Positions 2,776 through 44,522 of a DNA stretch of 52,991 nt are shown piece after piece. The notes below the pieces were generated by a model, which was given only the letters and a program-made list of their open reading frames with translations, ran no database searches and was not told the origin of the DNA. How positions within the stretch are numbered: position 1 is the stretch's first letter; each line of letters starts with the position of its first letter. A program made the position numbers and the translations under genes. The DNA is taken from the IMG/VR virus record IMGVR_UViG_3300011896_000001, positions 1 to 52,991 of that record. The stretch is one strand, 5' to 3'. Source of the DNA: a virus.

Positions 2776-2955
2776 GATGCTTTCACGCATCGGAATATCC
2801 AGGAACCCATTTACTAGGTGGGGGATACCGTTAAATTCCTGAATATTCCGACAAGCGAAGGCTTGTCCTAAGAAAGACGTCTTGGCGATGACCTGCGATG
2901 TATTATGGTGCAGCTCCCCTGTTAAGGATCATGGCTCGCTCTCGCTATTTCTTCC
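2776..2955 (-). ncRNA. Structured ORF-free intercistronic RNA element in the early operon; identity unknown.
   Basis: Three adjacent helices are present. GATGC/GCATC is at 2776-2791. A 14-bp stem at 2791-2804 / 2837-2850 has its single non-Watson-Crick pair as G-U only on the minus strand. gacaagc-gaag-gcttgtc is at 2850-2867. The tract is GC-enriched and has stops in all frames. Confidence 0.45.
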
Positions 2956-3153
2956 CTACCTGCTAGCATGGACTAACCATGATAGCAACGCTCTTAGCTT
3001 AAAGGGCTTGTTTATAGTCGCTAAGACGACTTTTATTGATTTTGGCATGTACATCTTCATTGTTATCCACAGTTTTGCGAATGGATGATCACCAGGTTTC
3101 GTGAAGCAATATTCATTGTAGAATCCCGTATTCAATTTCCCTTTAAAAATCAT
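2956..3153 (-). CDS. Hypothetical protein, 65 aa.
   Basis: Track ORF. An AAAGGGG RBS lies 9 nt upstream of the ATG at 3153. The C-terminal part runs into the structured tract, so the real end is uncertain. Confidence 0.4.
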   Translation of the reverse strand: MIFKGKLNTGFYNEYCFTKPGDHPFAKLWITMKMYMPKSIKVVLATINKPFKLRALLSWLVHASR

Positions 3154-3312: not shown

Positions 3313-3428
3313 CACTTTTCATCCTTCATAATTCGTTTGTCTATCCGTTCCATTAGGTAAATAAATCCTGCAAGCAAGATAACTCCAACCAGTATCATTA
3401 AATGTGAGAATGTGCTTTCTTCCATCAT
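3312..3428 (-). CDS. Hypothetical single-pass membrane peptide, 38 aa (MMEESTFSHLMILVGVILLAGFIYLMERIDKRIMKDEK).
   Basis: My own translation. It starts immediately after the antirepressor stop and has a hydrophobic core of about 20 aa. Confidence 0.4.
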   Translation of the reverse strand: MMEESTFSHLMILVGVILLAGFIYLMERIDKRIMKDEK

Positions 3429-41280: not shown

Positions 41281-41445
41281 CTATTTCTTAGCGAACAATA
41301 TACATAGCAATACAAACAGGATAAAAGACATATATGATTGTATAGGGTCTTTTCCTCTTGTTATTTCTGCATATATCACCGCTAAATCCACTAAAGTACA
41401 AATAAGGAACGCTAATATAACGCCCCATCCTGATATGTTTCTCAT
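41281..41445 (-). CDS. Two-TM hydrophobic small protein, 54 aa (MRNISGWGVILAFLICTLVDLAVIYAEITRGKDPIQSYMSFILFVLLCILFAKK).
   Basis: My own translation. A GAGGTG RBS lies 8 nt upstream. It is the first ORF of the terminase operon. Confidence 0.45.
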   Translation of the reverse strand: MRNISGWGVILAFLICTLVDLAVIYAEITRGKDPIQSYMSFILFVLLCILFAKK

Positions 41446-41515
41446 CTATCACTCACCTCATGGTAATCCCTAATTTAGTCTTGAAAATCTCTAAAACTCG
41501 ATGTATTATATTTTT

Positions 41516-41590
41516 GTGTTTTCTCAGTTCCCGAGCCGAGAATACATCATCACTTCTGAAAGGACCCGAACTCCAGCGGGTTCTTTTTAT
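41516..41590 (+). ncRNA. Candidate antisense sRNA 1, about 75 nt, with its own promoter and terminator.
   Basis: The promoter is TTGAAA (41481-41486), exact 17-nt spacer, TATTAT (41504-41509). The terminator is ggacccg-N8-cgggttc (41562-41583) followed by T5. There is no ORF. Confidence 0.6.
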
Positions 41591-41629
41591 TTACTTGAAC
41601 TCATTTTTGAATTATTGTATTATATTTTC

Positions 41630-41688
41630 GGGTCTTGCTCCATAAATCATTATCAGGAGAATCTGCAGGTTTGCAGGTTCTTTTTTTG
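41630..41688 (+). ncRNA. Candidate antisense sRNA 2, about 58 nt, with its own promoter and terminator.
   Basis: The promoter is TTGAAC (41595-41600), exact 17-nt spacer, TATTAT (41618-41623). The 13-mer tgtattatatttt is shared with unit 1. The terminator is a 9-bp stem at 41659-41680 (GGTT loop) followed by T7. Confidence 0.6.
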
Positions 41689-41689
41689 T

Positions 41690-41716
41690 AAAATAAAAAA
41701 GCAGCTTATTAGCTAC
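41690..41716 (-). terminator. Minus-strand terminator after the 82-aa gene: GTAGCT-aata-AGCTGC followed by TTTTTTATTTT.
   Basis: Read on the minus strand; it overlaps the stop codon of 41713..41961. Confidence 0.55.
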
Positions 41717-41961
41717 TGTAGTTGTTCAACTATCTCATTAAATAACTGTTTCCCTTTTTCCGGATATCTTTCTAATCCACCATCAGCAAAATATTCACCT
41801 TCACTATTTATCATCTCAATCAGCACTTCACCCTTCTCCCAAACCTGCAAAGAGAATGCTACACATGATTCGAATTCTTTTAATGCTTCTTCTCTGTCTG
41901 CTGTCGCTAACATAATATCCGTATCAGTGTTATCCCACATCACAACTGTATAGATCAGCAT
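41713..41961 (-). CDS. Hypothetical protein, 82 aa.
   Basis: Track ORF. Confidence 0.6.
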   Translation of the reverse strand: MLIYTVVMWDNTDTDIMLATADREEALKEFESCVAFSLQVWEKGEVLIEMINSEGEYFADGGLERYPEKGKQLFNEIVEQLQ

Positions 41962-42259
41962 GAAATCACCTCAAATGAATTTTATGATTAATTTATATAA
42001 TGCACTGTAAATTAACATCTATATCATAATAAATTAGTCAAAATGTATACATAGGTTAATAGAGAATAATATAGTCTTCTTACAGAAAGGCATATACTTA
42101 TATCTACTTATAATTTATGTATCCAACACATACATATAGGTATACATAACTATTAACTAAAAAAAATCATCGTTAACTATCTCTATTTTTATCCGTGTGT
42201 GGAGAACTCCCTTTTGATTTGTATATAGACGTGTAAGCAAATTAGAAGGAGGTTCTACT

Positions 42260-42358
42260 ATGAAAGCAGAACAACAACCGAGCAACAAATTATCACCTGA
42301 GCTTATTTTCGCTATTGCGGAATTAATCCGAGCTCTCCATGAAGCAGGAATCATTTGA
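42260..42358 (+). CDS. Plus-strand micro-gene, 32 aa (MKAEQQPSNKLSPELIFAIAELIRALHEAGII).
   Basis: My own translation. An AAGGAGG RBS lies 8 nt upstream. An 11-bp perfect terminator stem follows immediately. Confidence 0.5.
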   Translation: MKAEQQPSNKLSPELIFAIAELIRALHEAGII

Positions 42359-42375
42359 TTCCTGCTTTTCTATTT
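42342..42375 (+). terminator. Intrinsic terminator: aagcaggaatc-attt-gattcctgctt followed by a T-run.
   Basis: Perfect 11-bp stem overlapping the micro-gene stop. Confidence 0.8.
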
Positions 42376-43171: not shown

Positions 43172-43206
43172 TAACAAACAAAAAAGCCATCACCGAAGTG
43201 ACAGCT
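43172..43206 (-). terminator. Strong minus-strand intrinsic terminator: AGCUGUCAC-UUCG-GUGAUGGCU followed by U6GUUUGUU.
   Basis: The 9-bp stem includes two G-U pairs that become C-A mismatches on the plus strand, so it is strand-specific. It has a UUCG tetraloop. Confidence 0.8.
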
Positions 43207-44100
43207 CTTTACAAATTATAAAAATATTAAAGGGGATGGGAGAAATCATTCACGAAAGGGGAATTTCGCAATCATTTCAAGGTCAAGATTACTCTCAACC
43301 TTCTCAAAACAACCGATACATACAATGTGACTCAGGTTTTTAGCTCTTTGGCTATCCTGGTTATCGTGTTCGGTTGCTTGGAGAAGGAAAAGACCTTCTC
43401 ATTTATCCTCCGTGGAGTTTGCCAATACTTTGGCTGTCCCGTGACTTCAGGGTGTCACATACCACTTTCCTTATTGGTCAATACATCGGTTGTTGGGAAC
43501 CTTAGCTGACCAAATCGTTTTATACAATGTAATTATATCTAGAGGGAATATGTTTATTCCGTCCCCCTGTTTGAACCTACACAACCTGTAGCGGCACCCA
43601 CTCACTGCACTACTTGTATTGGCTCAAACAAAGAGCGGAACTCTTTGCCTAACGAAAGATGTGAGTAATTCGTTAAAATTAATTGATCATTCGTTCTAAA
43701 TTGATGAAGCAGCTCTGTATTCCTATTAATATTTAGAAACGCGTAATCATCCAATCATGGACCATCACCCCATTTCCATTTTCAAGAACAACATTAACAG
43801 AGAATAAGAGGTACTATGTTCACCATCAACCCAGAGGACATGGCGGTCTCTGAGCTGATTACTAAACACAATAGAAACAGCATGACGAATGCGAGTTATC
43901 TCACACCCGCCACACTGGAATATGTCATTGTAATTAACTCATTGGTCTTTTCGTCTTAACGCGGGTTCTTACCGCCTTGCCCGCCCTACTATGCGGTATA
44001 CGTTACCGTGACATTCTCGCATAAGAACGTTTCACTTATAGGTGTACTAATCCTCTTCGATATGCGGTTGTCAAAGGGCTTGTACATATAATTTATAATT
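43207..44100 (-). ncRNA. ORF-free, GC-enriched structured transcript of about 0.9 kb between arpU and the terminator; identity unknown.
   Basis: There is no credible ORF on either strand. Perfect stems are at 43381-43400 (7 bp), 43629-43647 (7 bp), 43545-43560 (6 bp), 43441-43458, 43832-43851 and 43994-44008. No terminator separates it from arpU. Confidence 0.5.
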
Positions 44101-44150
44101 TTTAGCATTTTATTTAGTCCCCCAAAAAGTTCGCGTTTTGTTCGCTATTT

Positions 44151-44522
44151 TTAAATGATTCCTAGTGCTGTAGCAATCAATTTAACCGCACTCTGCTTCT
44201 TCTCATAGAAATATGTCTTCTTAAGTAGAAGATCATGATAAACATCTGAATCTTTTACTCTCTCGTTTGTCAGGAACTTACGCTCAACGATATTACGCTC
44301 ATCCTCATCTAATAAATTGTTAAGTGCCTTCTCTACCTGCTGCACCTTCCATTTACTCGTATTCCTTGAATCACGCAACTCAGGGAATAAACTGATTCCT
44401 TCCTGCTCCACATCATTACTAAATCTCATCTTGAGTGCTCTGTACTCCTTTAATACGCTTACTACTTCCTTTTGTACTTTTTTATCATCTACAGCCGGTA
44501 ATAAAGTTAATTGTCTCTCCAT
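44151..44522 (-). CDS. arpU: ArpU-family late transcriptional regulator, 123 aa.
   Basis: LPAVDDKKVQKEVVSVLKEYRALK...NLLDEDERNIVERKFL matches the ArpU-family pattern, supported by size. Confidence 0.75.
   Translation of the reverse strand: MERQLTLLPAVDDKKVQKEVVSVLKEYRALKMRFSNDVEQEGISLFPELRDSRNTSKWKVQQVEKALNNLLDEDERNIVERKFLTNERVKDSDVYHDLLLKKTYFYEKKQSAVKLIATALGII

What the first reader, a model, noticed from the sequence alone, without database searches (positions are those of the whole stretch)
41446..41712. Two tandem, paralogous sRNA mini-genes antisense to the leader of the terminase (late) operon, next to a hydrophobic 54-aa ORF
The 267-nt gap before the terS operon carries two back-to-back plus-strand units. 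Each has a near-consensus sigma-A promoter (TTGAAA or TTGAAC, exactly 17 nt, TATTAT), and they share the 13-mer tgtattatatttt. Each also has a strong intrinsic terminator (41562-41590 and 41659-41688). The predicted products are about 75 and 58 nt with no ORF. Everything around them is transcribed the other way. The upstream gene ends in a minus-strand terminator at 41690-41716, so the late promoter and leader must lie exactly under these units. The first downstream ORF (41281-41445) is a two-TM hydrophobic peptide, and the layout resembles type I toxin-antitoxin loci. The sRNAs could silence leaky late, terminase or toxic-peptide expression in lysogens.
Basis: partly seen in the sequence, partly recalled or inferred. 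Interest (0 to 1): 0.78.

Follow-up and report, generated by a model that had tools for sequence, protein, structure and literature searches.

The report
Mobile two-gene small-RNA cassette before terminase
The gap in front of this Bacillus cereus-group prophage's packaging genes holds an optional, roughly 215-bp insert with two small non-coding RNA genes; the same genes are shuffled among more than 160 Bacillus plasmids, other prophages and some chromosomes, their target is unknown, and they are not a toxin-antitoxin pair with the neighbouring 54-aa ORF.

Summary
Two plus-strand units lie between terS/orf54 and the upstream gene. Each has a TTGAAA/C-17-TATTAT promoter, a G·U-containing hairpin and a T-run.

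Comparative data show they are real, autonomous genes. The conserved block starts at the first -35 and stops at the last T-run. It matches 164 B. cereus-group plasmid records and dozens of IMG/VR prophages. Promoter hexamers and two single-stranded motifs are better conserved than spacers and loops. The hairpins show compensatory changes and pair well only on the plus strand. Rfam has no match.

The units occur singly, together, as a recombinant hybrid (promoter 1 fused to sRNA2), or flanking a cassette of two small membrane proteins. They also occur in non-phage contexts.

Phage 0105phi7-2 has the identical flanks with nothing between them, so the module is a moron-like insertion. That empty site leaves no room for a late promoter. 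Late-direction transcription therefore probably reads through the upstream terminator and crosses the module antisense. This step is inferred.

The 54-aa ORF is an orphan present in 4 of 88 loci, so the type I toxin-antitoxin reading is not supported. Function is unproven. No target stood out in silico.

The parts
41471..41685 (+). The inserted module as a whole (units U1 + U2). It is absent from the otherwise identical site in phage 0105phi7-2.
   Evidence: Alignment A5. The left flank is identical up to ...GGTAATCCC. The right flank resumes at TT(T/G)(A/T)TAAAATAAAAA GCAG. The conserved block across 8 diverse loci has the same limits (A2).
41481..41509 (+). Promoter P1 (-35 TTGAAA, 17-nt spacer, -10 TATTAT).
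   Evidence: 10/12. In loci not selected on U1, identity to the window is 0.98 for each hexamer and 0.84 for the spacer, with spacer length kept.
41516..41592 (+). Predicted sRNA1 (~75 nt). It has a 5' hairpin (41516-41547), a conserved single-stranded ACAUCAUCACUU (41544-41555) and terminator T1 (41558-41587 plus T-run).
   Evidence: Fold. On 39 unique copies, 96.3% of pair cells are paired; the T1 helix is 99.8% paired, with GC<->AU changes. Standard pairs (G·U allowed) number 863/896 on the plus strand and 741/896 on the minus strand. Frame-breaking indels rule out a conserved ORF.
41595..41623 (+). Promoter P2 (-35 TTGAAC, 17-nt spacer, -10 TATTAT).
   Evidence: 9/12. In loci not selected on U2, identity is 0.96 for the -35, 0.98 for the -10 and 0.875 for the spacer.
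41630..41688 (+). Predicted sRNA2 (~58 nt). It has a conserved single-stranded AUAAAUCAUUAUC (41642-41654) and terminator T2 (41655-41684 plus T7).
   Evidence: Fold. On 31 unique copies, 97% of cells are paired and 3 pairs have compensatory changes; 0/500 shuffles reach the observed values for cells paired, pairs changed on both sides or the covariation score. Plus-strand pairs 388/400, minus-strand 314/400. An 8-nt deletion in L004 rebuilds a hairpin.
41689..41717 (-). Terminator-like hairpin (T_up) of the upstream gene orf82. It converges on T2 and is part of the phage-context flank, not of the mobile module.
   Evidence: It is also present in phages with the empty site.
41446..41470 (-). 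Short leader and ribosome-binding site of the first late-direction gene (orf54 here). This is the left flank of the insertion.
   Evidence: It is 100% identical over 26 nt in phage 0105phi7-2, where a different 80-aa gene follows.
41281..41445 (-). orf54, an orphan 54-aa hydrophobic ORF. It is adjacent to the module but not part of it.
   Evidence: No Pfam, PHROG, PADLOC or NCBIfam family matches.

Best explanation
What it is. The 41471-41685 segment is an optional, moron-like insertion carrying two autonomous sRNA genes that are probably paralogous. Each gene is a complete unit: a sigma-A promoter, a short RNA and an intrinsic terminator. The predicted RNAs are about 75 and 58 nt.

How it moves. 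The units belong to a small modular set that recombines through its shared promoter core (TGTATTATATTTT) and terminator half (GCrGGTTCTTTTT). It circulates among temperate phages, phage-plasmids, megaplasmids and some chromosomes of the B. cereus group. It often travels with a same-strand pair of small membrane-protein genes (phrog_4766).

Most likely mechanism (inferred, not shown). Both RNAs are made constitutively, including in the lysogen. They act as base-pairing riboregulators through their conserved single-stranded motifs: ACAUCAUCACUU in sRNA1 and UAAAUCAUUAUC in sRNA2. The mRNA targets are unidentified and could belong to the host or to a rival mobile element.

Secondary effect in phages (inferred). 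In the phage the module sits head-on inside the late-direction transcription path, between a leaky upstream terminator and the first late gene. It should therefore also act as a barrier. Convergent transcription and duplex formation would oppose transcripts leaking from upstream morons into terS, lysis and other late genes. Massive late transcription after induction would override this.

Shown: the anatomy, the conservation pattern, strand-specific structure, modularity and the insertion polymorphism. Inferred: expression, trans-targets, and read-through of the upstream terminator.

The confidence given is for the whole statement. That the units are genuine, autonomous, mobile sRNA genes I put at about 0.8. 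That their main role is trans-acting base pairing I put at about 0.4-0.45.
For: Boundaries and distribution:
- The conserved block runs exactly from promoter to terminator (A2).
- 164 PLSDB records match, all Bacillus; 88 of them match over at least 80% of the query.
- Further IMG/VR and GTDB copies were found.

Conservation profile:
- Promoter hexamers (0.96-0.98) exceed spacers (0.84-0.875).
- Single-stranded motifs (0.98-0.99) exceed hairpin loops (0.79-0.87).
- This is the profile expected of an expressed, seed-bearing sRNA.

Structure:
- Compensatory changes occur, and G·U pairs make the hairpins valid only on the plus strand.

Autonomy:
- U1 alone lies 36 nt after plasmid rep genes.
- U2 alone follows cas68-cas76 on conjugative plasmids.
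- U1+U2 occur in non-phage megaplasmid and chromosomal loci.

Recombinants:
- Natural recombinants keep an intact unit: U1-only and the P1::sRNA2 hybrid.
- Only two cargo types use this promoter type in the held loci: 69 sRNA1 and 58 sRNA2.

Insertion and orientation:
- The empty site in phage 0105phi7-2 shows an insertion polymorphism.
- In every locus with a detectable terS (about 60, with at least two terS types and terL at about 25% identity between types), the units lie upstream on the opposite strand.
- Empty-site phages leave no room for a promoter after T_up, so late-direction transcripts must read through it.
Against: - There are no expression data of any kind.
- No target scored above shuffled controls, whether among the window's translation-initiation regions, the cassette mRNA or 783 kb of held loci.
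- Part of the sRNA1 single-stranded stretch varies (CACUU[C/U/A/G]UGAAA(A)GG) once copies are sampled without bias. Only about 12 nt is near-invariant.
- The copies are closely related (78-99% identity), so covariation is modest, and conservation partly reflects recent spread.
- The constant orientation in phages may reflect a single ancestral insertion rather than selection.
- Related phages do without the module, so it is not essential for late gene control.
Confidence: 0.5

Rival explanations
1. The sRNAs act purely in cis as antisense or insulator elements. Their only role is to block or degrade late-direction read-through into terS, in the manner of lambda OOP or P22 sar. They have no trans targets.
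For: - The position and head-on orientation before the first late gene are invariant in about 60 terS-linked loci.
- Every phage variant keeps at least one unit, with P1 next to the late gene.
- Empty-site phages imply read-through of T_up.
- No trans target was found.
Against: - Intact units persist where nothing conserved lies opposite them: after rep genes, on chromosomes, on megaplasmids.
- Single-stranded motifs are conserved more than loops. A purely cis-antisense RNA does not need this.
- The orientation evidence is not independent if all phage copies descend from one insertion.
Confidence: 0.25
2. Type I toxin-antitoxin locus. orf54 is a membrane toxin whose mRNA is silenced by sRNA1 and/or sRNA2.
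For: - orf54 is small and hydrophobic, and has a good ribosome-binding site.
- sRNA1's conserved motif can form about 10 bp, with one bulge, across the orf54 ribosome-binding site and start codon (by eye; duplex -14.7 kcal/mol).
Against: - orf54 is present in 4 of 88 module loci (window, L053, L040, L052).
- Its exact sequence is on 2 contigs, and there is one homologous cluster in the 5.8-billion-protein set.
- The module is more than 100 times as widespread, and usually abuts terS or orf70 instead.
- sRNA1 is transcribed away from orf54 without overlap.
- The duplex energy lies within the range of shuffled seeds (-14.4 to -19.7).
- No toxin family matches orf54, and no Rfam antitoxin family matches.
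Confidence: 0.03
3. The units are regulatory parts of the cas68-cas76 small-membrane-protein cassette. U1 would be a 5' leader or attenuator, or a trans antitoxin. U2 would be a 3'-UTR sRNA and terminator. The window holds a cassette-less remnant.
For: - The cassette is bracketed by the units in most loci where it was detected, as U1-cas68-cas76-U2 or U1-U2-cas68-cas76-U2', including non-phage loci. In a few loci no unit was detected on one side.
- T2 would terminate the cassette mRNA.
Against: - Most loci have units without the cassette.
- The cassette has its own predicted promoter, TTGTAA-17-TAAAAT.
- No complementarity between the sRNAs and the cassette mRNA exceeds shuffles.
- Units without the cassette keep intact promoters and terminators.
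Confidence: 0.1
4. There is no RNA function. The block is a dispersed DNA repeat (a bcr-type element or recombination linker) or a bidirectional promoter/terminator insulator, and its promoter-like and terminator-like features are incidental. The minus-strand reading of each -10 box is TATAAT, which could serve as a late promoter.
For: - The element is restricted to the B. cereus group, low in copy number and 100-300 bp long, like the bcr repeats.
- Unit junctions often fall at TTTAT-like sequences.
- AAAATATAATACA on the minus strand of both units gives a perfect -10.
- High identity could reflect recent spread.
Against: - Conservation peaks on the plus-strand -35, which a minus-strand promoter does not need.
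- The minus-strand TATAAT has no -35 and no shared upstream sequence in the U1-only versus hybrid variants.
- The hairpins pair well only on the plus strand.
- A deletion rebuilt a hairpin.
- bcr18 and bcr7 are excluded by their reported absence from Bti genomes whose plasmids carry the module.
Confidence: 0.12

Closest known systems
Phage morons (independent promoter-gene-terminator units inserted between genes of late operons, as described for lambdoid phages such as HK97 and HK022; from my own knowledge)
   Same: Each unit has its own sigma-70-type promoter and intrinsic terminator. Closely related phages differ by presence or absence at the same site (empty site in 0105phi7-2). The module is dispensable, and expression in the lysogen is expected.
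   Different: The cargo is non-coding RNA rather than protein. The orientation is head-on to the host operon. The same units also live on plasmids and chromosomes and recombine with one another.
Lambda OOP RNA and P22 sar RNA (short constitutive antisense RNAs of temperate phages; from my own knowledge)
   Same: They are about 60-80 nt, have their own promoter and intrinsic terminator, and are transcribed against lytic-direction transcription.
   Different: OOP and sar overlap defined coding or ribosome-binding regions (cII, ant). Here the overlapped stretch is an untranslated spacer, the opposing transcript is only inferred, and the units also exist without any opposing gene.
Bacillus prophage type I toxin-antitoxin loci (bsrG/SR4, txpA/RatA, yonT/SR6; from my own knowledge)
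   Same: An sRNA lies next to a small hydrophobic ORF in a Bacillus prophage.
   Different: Those pairs overlap convergently at their 3' ends and are inherited together. Here there is no overlap with orf54, no co-inheritance, and no family match for RNA or peptide.
bcr repeats of the B. cereus group (bcr1-bcr18; PMC6542083, PMC6199540)
   Same: They are restricted to the group, are dispersed on chromosomes and plasmids, have a few copies per genome, are structured, and have TTTAT-like junctions.
   Different: bcr7 and bcr18 are excluded. The bcr papers I could read do not describe these as promoter-to-terminator sRNA genes.
RsaE/RoxS-type seed-bearing Firmicute sRNAs
   Same: A short sRNA with a conserved single-stranded pyrimidine-rich motif ahead of an intrinsic terminator. 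sRNA1's UCACUUCU resembles the anti-Shine-Dalgarno sequence. A sub-threshold RsaE-like gene sits 1.5 kb away in the same accessory region.
   Different: There is no sequence or structure match of U1 or U2 to RF01820 or to any other Rfam family. They have no C-rich repeats.

Membership tests
Independent sRNA gene (sigma-A promoter + intrinsic terminator, non-coding) | A promoter with conserved -35 and -10 hexamers at fixed spacing. | tested here: met
   Hexamer identity is 0.96-0.98 against 0.84-0.875 for the spacers, and the 17-nt spacing is kept.
Independent sRNA gene (sigma-A promoter + intrinsic terminator, non-coding) | A strand-specific terminator hairpin plus U-run, maintained by compensatory change. 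| tested here: met
   The helices are 97-99.8% paired, with GC<->AU and AU<->CG changes. Pairing on the plus strand far exceeds pairing on the minus strand.
Independent sRNA gene (sigma-A promoter + intrinsic terminator, non-coding) | No conserved reading frame. | tested here: met
   Frame-breaking indels occur inside both RNAs in alignments A3 and A4 and. There is no ribosome-binding site or start codon in a suitable place.
Independent sRNA gene (sigma-A promoter + intrinsic terminator, non-coding) | A discrete transcript is detected. | not testable with these tools
   No transcriptome data were available. The literature search by sequence found nothing.
Type I toxin-antitoxin system | The antitoxin RNA is complementary to the toxin mRNA, either by cis overlap or by an extended trans match. 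| tested here: not met
   sRNA1 starts at ~41516 and runs away from orf54 (41445-41281). The best duplex, -14.7 kcal/mol, lies within the range of shuffled seeds.
Type I toxin-antitoxin system | Toxin and antitoxin are inherited together. | tested here: not met
   orf54 is in 4 of 88 module loci. Its exact sequence is on 2 contigs, and it has one homologous cluster.
Type I toxin-antitoxin system | The small hydrophobic peptide is toxic when expressed. | not testable with these tools
   The sequence is hydrophobic, but no toxin family matches it.
Known Rfam RNA families (including Bacillus type I antitoxins, RsaE and Bacillus-plasmid motifs) | A covariance-model match at or near the gathering score. 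| tested here: not met
   The best hits have E-values from 0.46 to 8.8 and align only to terminator hairpins.
Phage moron | Its own promoter and terminator, inserted between genes, with presence/absence polymorphism among related phages. | tested here: met
   empty site in 0105phi7-2; PfNC7401.
Cis-antisense RNA of a late transcript (OOP/sar-like) | An opposite-strand transcript spans the sRNA genes. | not testable with these tools
   It is inferred only. There is no room for a promoter between T_up and the next ribosome-binding site in empty-site phages. ArpU-type late promoters lie next to the activator gene.
bcr repeats (B. cereus group) | Sequence match to a bcr1-bcr18 consensus. | not testable with these tools
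   The consensus sequences are not held. bcr7 and bcr18 are excluded indirectly.

The most novel reading that the evidence does not exclude
The units are members of a previously unrecognised cassette system for mini-genes in the B. cereus group. In it, sRNA genes and small-membrane-protein genes are bounded by shared promoter and terminator 'adaptor' sequences. These adaptors let the cassettes be swapped, fused and deleted by recombination, and moved between phages, plasmids and chromosomes. In temperate phages the sRNA cassettes would be kept head-on before terS as a gatekeeper of the late operon, while their conserved seeds also regulate host or rival-element mRNAs.
Probability: 0.2. Interest if true: 0.7.

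Novelty: new member of a known kind. Interest (0 to 1): 0.5.

Why it matters
If they are expressed, these would be two new and widespread sRNA families carried by B. cereus, B. thuringiensis and anthracis-like mobile elements. These organisms have few characterised sRNAs.

The natural variants form a ready-made genetic series. They include the empty site, U1 only, the P1::sRNA2 hybrid, U1+U2, and versions with or without the membrane-protein cassette. This series can be used to test how phage-borne sRNAs affect lysogen physiology, late-gene silencing or competition between mobile elements.

The work also shows that the region between arpU and terS in these phages is a hot spot for RNA genes, and possibly for anti-defence genes.

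Tried and rejected
1. Rfam at gathering and at E<=10: no family matched the units.
2. INPHARED phage genomes: no match to the module itself, although PLSDB and IMG/VR hold many copies.
3. Trans-target prediction with RNAduplex gave nothing above shuffled controls. I tested the translation-initiation regions of all 191 ORFs of at least 50 aa in the window, the cas68-cas76 mRNA, and exact reverse-complement seeds in 783 kb of held loci.
4. My first impression that a 19-nt stretch of sRNA1 is invariant was an ascertainment artefact, because I had scanned with that 19-mer. A promoter-anchored scan showed variation in its 3' half.
5. XrrA/XrrB of pXO1 were considered as possible identities. I did not pursue this. 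[quoted passage not shown]
6. bcr18 was considered because it is plasmid-only. It is excluded by its reported absence from Bti genomes whose plasmids carry the module.
7. A cos or pac site, or a terS recognition site, was rejected. The same module precedes unrelated terS and terL types and also occurs without any terminase.
8. Small conserved ORFs on either strand inside the units were rejected because of frame-shifting indels.
9. PADLOC and NCBIfam gave nothing for orf54, orf82, cas68 or cas76.

Full report
OBSERVATION

- P1 is TTGAAA-17-TATTAT at 41481-41509.
- P2 is TTGAAC-17-TATTAT at 41595-41623.
- The shared 13-mer TGTATTATATTTT lies inside a 21-nt repeat that is 86% identical.
- T1 is an 11-pair hairpin at 41558-41587 followed by a T-run.
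- T2 is a 13-pair hairpin at 41655-41684 followed by T7.
- A minus-strand terminator-like hairpin (T_up) for orf82 lies at 41717-41700.

The predicted RNAs are about 75 nt (MFE -23.8 kcal/mol, z -3.2) and about 58 nt (MFE -16.9, z -2.5).

Promoter-like sites alone are at chance level in this AT-rich DNA (14 found, 12.9 expected). Terminator-like sites are enriched (11 found, 1.3 expected). The case therefore rests on comparative evidence.

THE MODULE IS CONSERVED EXACTLY FROM PROMOTER TO TERMINATOR

Rfam has no match at gathering or at E<=10. The INPHARED phage set has no match to the gap.

PLSDB gives 164 records, all Bacillus. In 88 of them the match covers at least 80% of the query, at 78-99% identity.

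An alignment of eight diverse copies (A2) shows that similarity begins about 10 nt before the P1 -35 and ends at the T-run of T2. The flanks are unrelated.

Exact-pattern scans added 9 loci in GTDB species genomes. These are B. cereus-group species and close relatives, plus one genome labelled 'Paenibacillus sp. 102'. The scans also added dozens of IMG/VR prophage contigs.

SIGNATURES OF EXPRESSED RNA GENES

I measured identity to the window in loci that were not selected on the unit being measured.

| Region | U1 | U2 |
|---|---|---|
| -35 | 0.98 | 0.96 |
| spacer | 0.84 | 0.875 |
| -10 | 0.98 | 0.98 |
| 5' hairpin loop | 0.79 | n/a |
| single-stranded motif | 0.99 (CATCACTT) | 0.98 (ATAAATCATTATC) |
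| terminator loop | 0.87 | 0.83 |

On 39 unique U1 copies, 96.3% of pair cells are paired. The T1 helix is 99.8% paired, with a GC<->AU switch and G·U intermediates.

On 31 unique U2 copies the T2 helix is 97% paired, with three pairs changed on both sides. None of 500 shuffles reaches the observed values for cells paired, pairs changed on both sides or the covariation score.

Many pairs are G·U, so standard pairing is much better on the plus strand: 863/896 and 388/400 there, against 741/896 and 314/400 on the minus strand. In L004 an 8-nt deletion inside T2 rebuilds a shorter hairpin. Indels break any reading frame.

A caveat I had to correct: the apparent invariance of a 19-nt stretch in sRNA1 came from scanning with that 19-mer. 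A promoter-anchored scan shows CACUU[C/U/A/G]UGAAA(A)GG variants, and only ACAUCAUCACUU is near-invariant.

The copies are closely related. Covariation is therefore real but modest.

MODULARITY

Across 88 loci the units occur in several arrangements:

- U1+U2 together.
- U1 alone, fused to the downstream A-tract by T1/T2 recombination.
- A hybrid with P1 fused to the sRNA2 body, through recombination in the shared TGTATTATATTTT.
- U1-[cas68-cas76]-U2.
- U1-U2-[cas68-cas76]-partial U2.

cas68 and cas76 are paralogous two-segment membrane proteins of 68 and 76 aa (phrog_4766, function unknown). They have their own predicted promoter.

A regular-expression search for this promoter type in all held loci finds only two cargoes, 69 sRNA1 and 58 sRNA2.

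The two RNAs share the promoter core, their first bases (GUGUUUU and GGGUCUU), an AUCAUYAY motif and the terminator 3' half. They are therefore probably paralogous.

CONTEXTS

In every locus with a detectable terS (about 60), the units are upstream of terS on the opposite strand. These loci include a 314-aa Terminase_2 type and a 252-aa type whose terL is only about 25% identical. The first late-direction gene is terS itself, an orf70 (phrog_2395) or, rarely, orf54.

The units also occur away from phages:

- U1+U2 between a hydrolase gene and a cell-wall-binding protein gene, next to an ArsR regulator gene, and next to IS elements on megaplasmids.
- Next to a TnpB gene, and next to a LacI-family regulator gene on chromosomal contigs, one of them 1.8 Mb long.
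- U1 alone, 36 nt downstream of plasmid replication-initiator genes on the same strand.
- cas68-cas76-U2 on conjugative plasmids and beside a cry gene.

The units therefore do not depend on the late operon.

INSERTION POLYMORPHISM AND THE LATE PROMOTER

Phage 0105phi7-2 has the same left flank (...CATGGTAATCCC, including the ribosome-binding-site leader) and the same right flank (TTTATAAAATAAAAAGCAG..., which is T_up). Nothing lies between them. The module, window ~41471-41685, is thus an insertion of about 215 bp, that is, a moron.

In that phage and in PfNC7401, T_up is followed within 11-13 nt by the ribosome-binding site of the next late-direction gene. No promoter fits there, so late-direction transcription must read through T_up.

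The window's ArpU-family activator (44151-44522; TIGR01637, 59.5 bits) lies about 2.9 kb upstream. In the Ltr/ArpU paradigm, the activator's direct-repeat binding sites lie immediately downstream of its gene, just upstream of the late promoter (PMC3753634). GCGAAC-N5-GCGAAC-N6-GGGGAC sits just after arpU (by eye).

The weaker claim, that the sRNAs are antisense to a transcript heading for terS, is plausible by inference.

A residual alternative is the perfect TATAAT that each -10 box gives on the minus strand. It has no -35, and it has no common upstream sequence in the U1-only and hybrid variants.

THE 54-aa ORF

orf54 accompanies the module in only 4 of 88 loci (window, L053, L040, L052). 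Its exact sequence is on two contigs. A search of 5.8 billion proteins returns a single cluster. It matches no Pfam, PHROG, PADLOC or NCBIfam family.

sRNA1 is transcribed away from it. The best sRNA1-orf54 duplex, -14.7 kcal/mol, lies within the range of shuffled seeds. The type I toxin-antitoxin reading is therefore not supported.

MECHANISM

Shown: two autonomous, conserved, strand-specific promoter-RNA-terminator units, which are modular and mobile, inserted head-on before the late genes.

Inferred as most likely: the sRNAs are made constitutively and act through their conserved single-stranded motifs on unidentified mRNAs. sRNA1's UCACUUCU resembles the anti-Shine-Dalgarno sequence and could pair with GGAGGUGA-type sites using two G·U pairs. 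In phages they would secondarily act as a convergent-transcription and antisense barrier against leakage from upstream morons into the late operon.

I could not find targets, and I have no expression data.

Rivals: a purely cis barrier (0.25); regulatory parts of the cas68/cas76 cassette (0.10); a DNA repeat or insulator without RNA function (0.12); a type I toxin-antitoxin pair with orf54 (0.03).

COMPARISON AND NOVELTY

The module works like a moron whose cargo is sRNA. In its phage position it resembles the lambda OOP and P22 sar antisense RNAs. It is not a member of any Rfam family.

Identity with one of the low-copy bcr repeats of the B. cereus group could not be tested, because the consensus sequences are not held. 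bcr7 and bcr18 are excluded. A text search for the motifs found no paper.

I rate it a new member of a known kind, of moderate interest. The natural allelic series makes it unusually testable.

Noticed in passing
window 2954-3031 (-): Pistol ribozyme (RF02679), 59.3 bits against a gathering score of 34.5, E 2.4e-8. It was the only Rfam hit at gathering threshold in the window.
   Followed up: no
window 43180-43280 (-): RsaE/RoxS-like sRNA below the Rfam threshold: 46.3 bits against a gathering score of 79, E about 1e-6. It has the two C-rich motifs (AUUCCCCUUU and CAUCCCCUUU), a promoter-like site with an extended -10 at 43298-43271, and a strong terminator at 43210-43181. A phage-borne RoxS-like gene may be worth its own look.
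   Followed up: partly
window ~43190-44150 (-): About 950 nt directly downstream of the ArpU-like activator gene have no ORF longer than 50 aa. The stretch is conserved, and unannotated, in Bacillus phages 0105phi7-2, 250, IEBH, PfNC7401 and LY4. It may be a long structured leader of the late transcript. If late transcription must pass several terminators, this is where a cis-acting antitermination RNA could lie (speculation).
   Followed up: partly
window ~44115-44146 (-): Direct repeats GCGAAC-N5-GCGAAC-N6-GGGGAC lie immediately after the arpU stop codon. They are candidate ArpU boxes by analogy with the 7-nt repeats described in PMC3753634. Seen by eye only.
   Followed up: no
window 42260-42368 (+): Another plus-strand mini-unit: a 32-aa ORF with a GAAGGAGG ribosome-binding site (weak match to phrog_33789) and its own terminator at 42341-42368. 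An AT-rich, inverted-repeat-rich region at 41962-42260 separates it from the divergently oriented orf82.
   Followed up: no
L002 3303-3749; L023 3472-3918 (relatives, not in the window): cas68 and cas76 are paralogous small membrane proteins (phrog_4766, function unknown). In most loci where they were detected, sRNA units lie on both sides of them, in phage, plasmid and chromosomal loci alike. No defence or toxin family matches them.
   Followed up: partly
L052 1438-1707: A Tad2-like (PF11195, anti-Thoeris) gene sits in the same arpU-terS accessory region of the one other phage lineage that carries orf54. This suggests the region is an anti-defence and accessory hot spot.
   Followed up: no
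L003 1-1845 and 3500-3886; L001 3272-4096: In some relatives a group II intron reverse transcriptase/maturase gene and GIY-YIG nuclease genes lie next to the module. The junction before terS attracts several kinds of mobile DNA.
   Followed up: no
unit junctions, e.g. window 41584-41594; L023 ~3388-3400; empty site L054 2352-2362: The boundaries of units and cassette often coincide with TTTAT or one-mismatch variants, and the empty site reads CCCTTTATAAAAT. TTTAT is the motif reported for bcr repeat insertion. It is low in information in AT-rich DNA, and I did not test it statistically.
   Followed up: no
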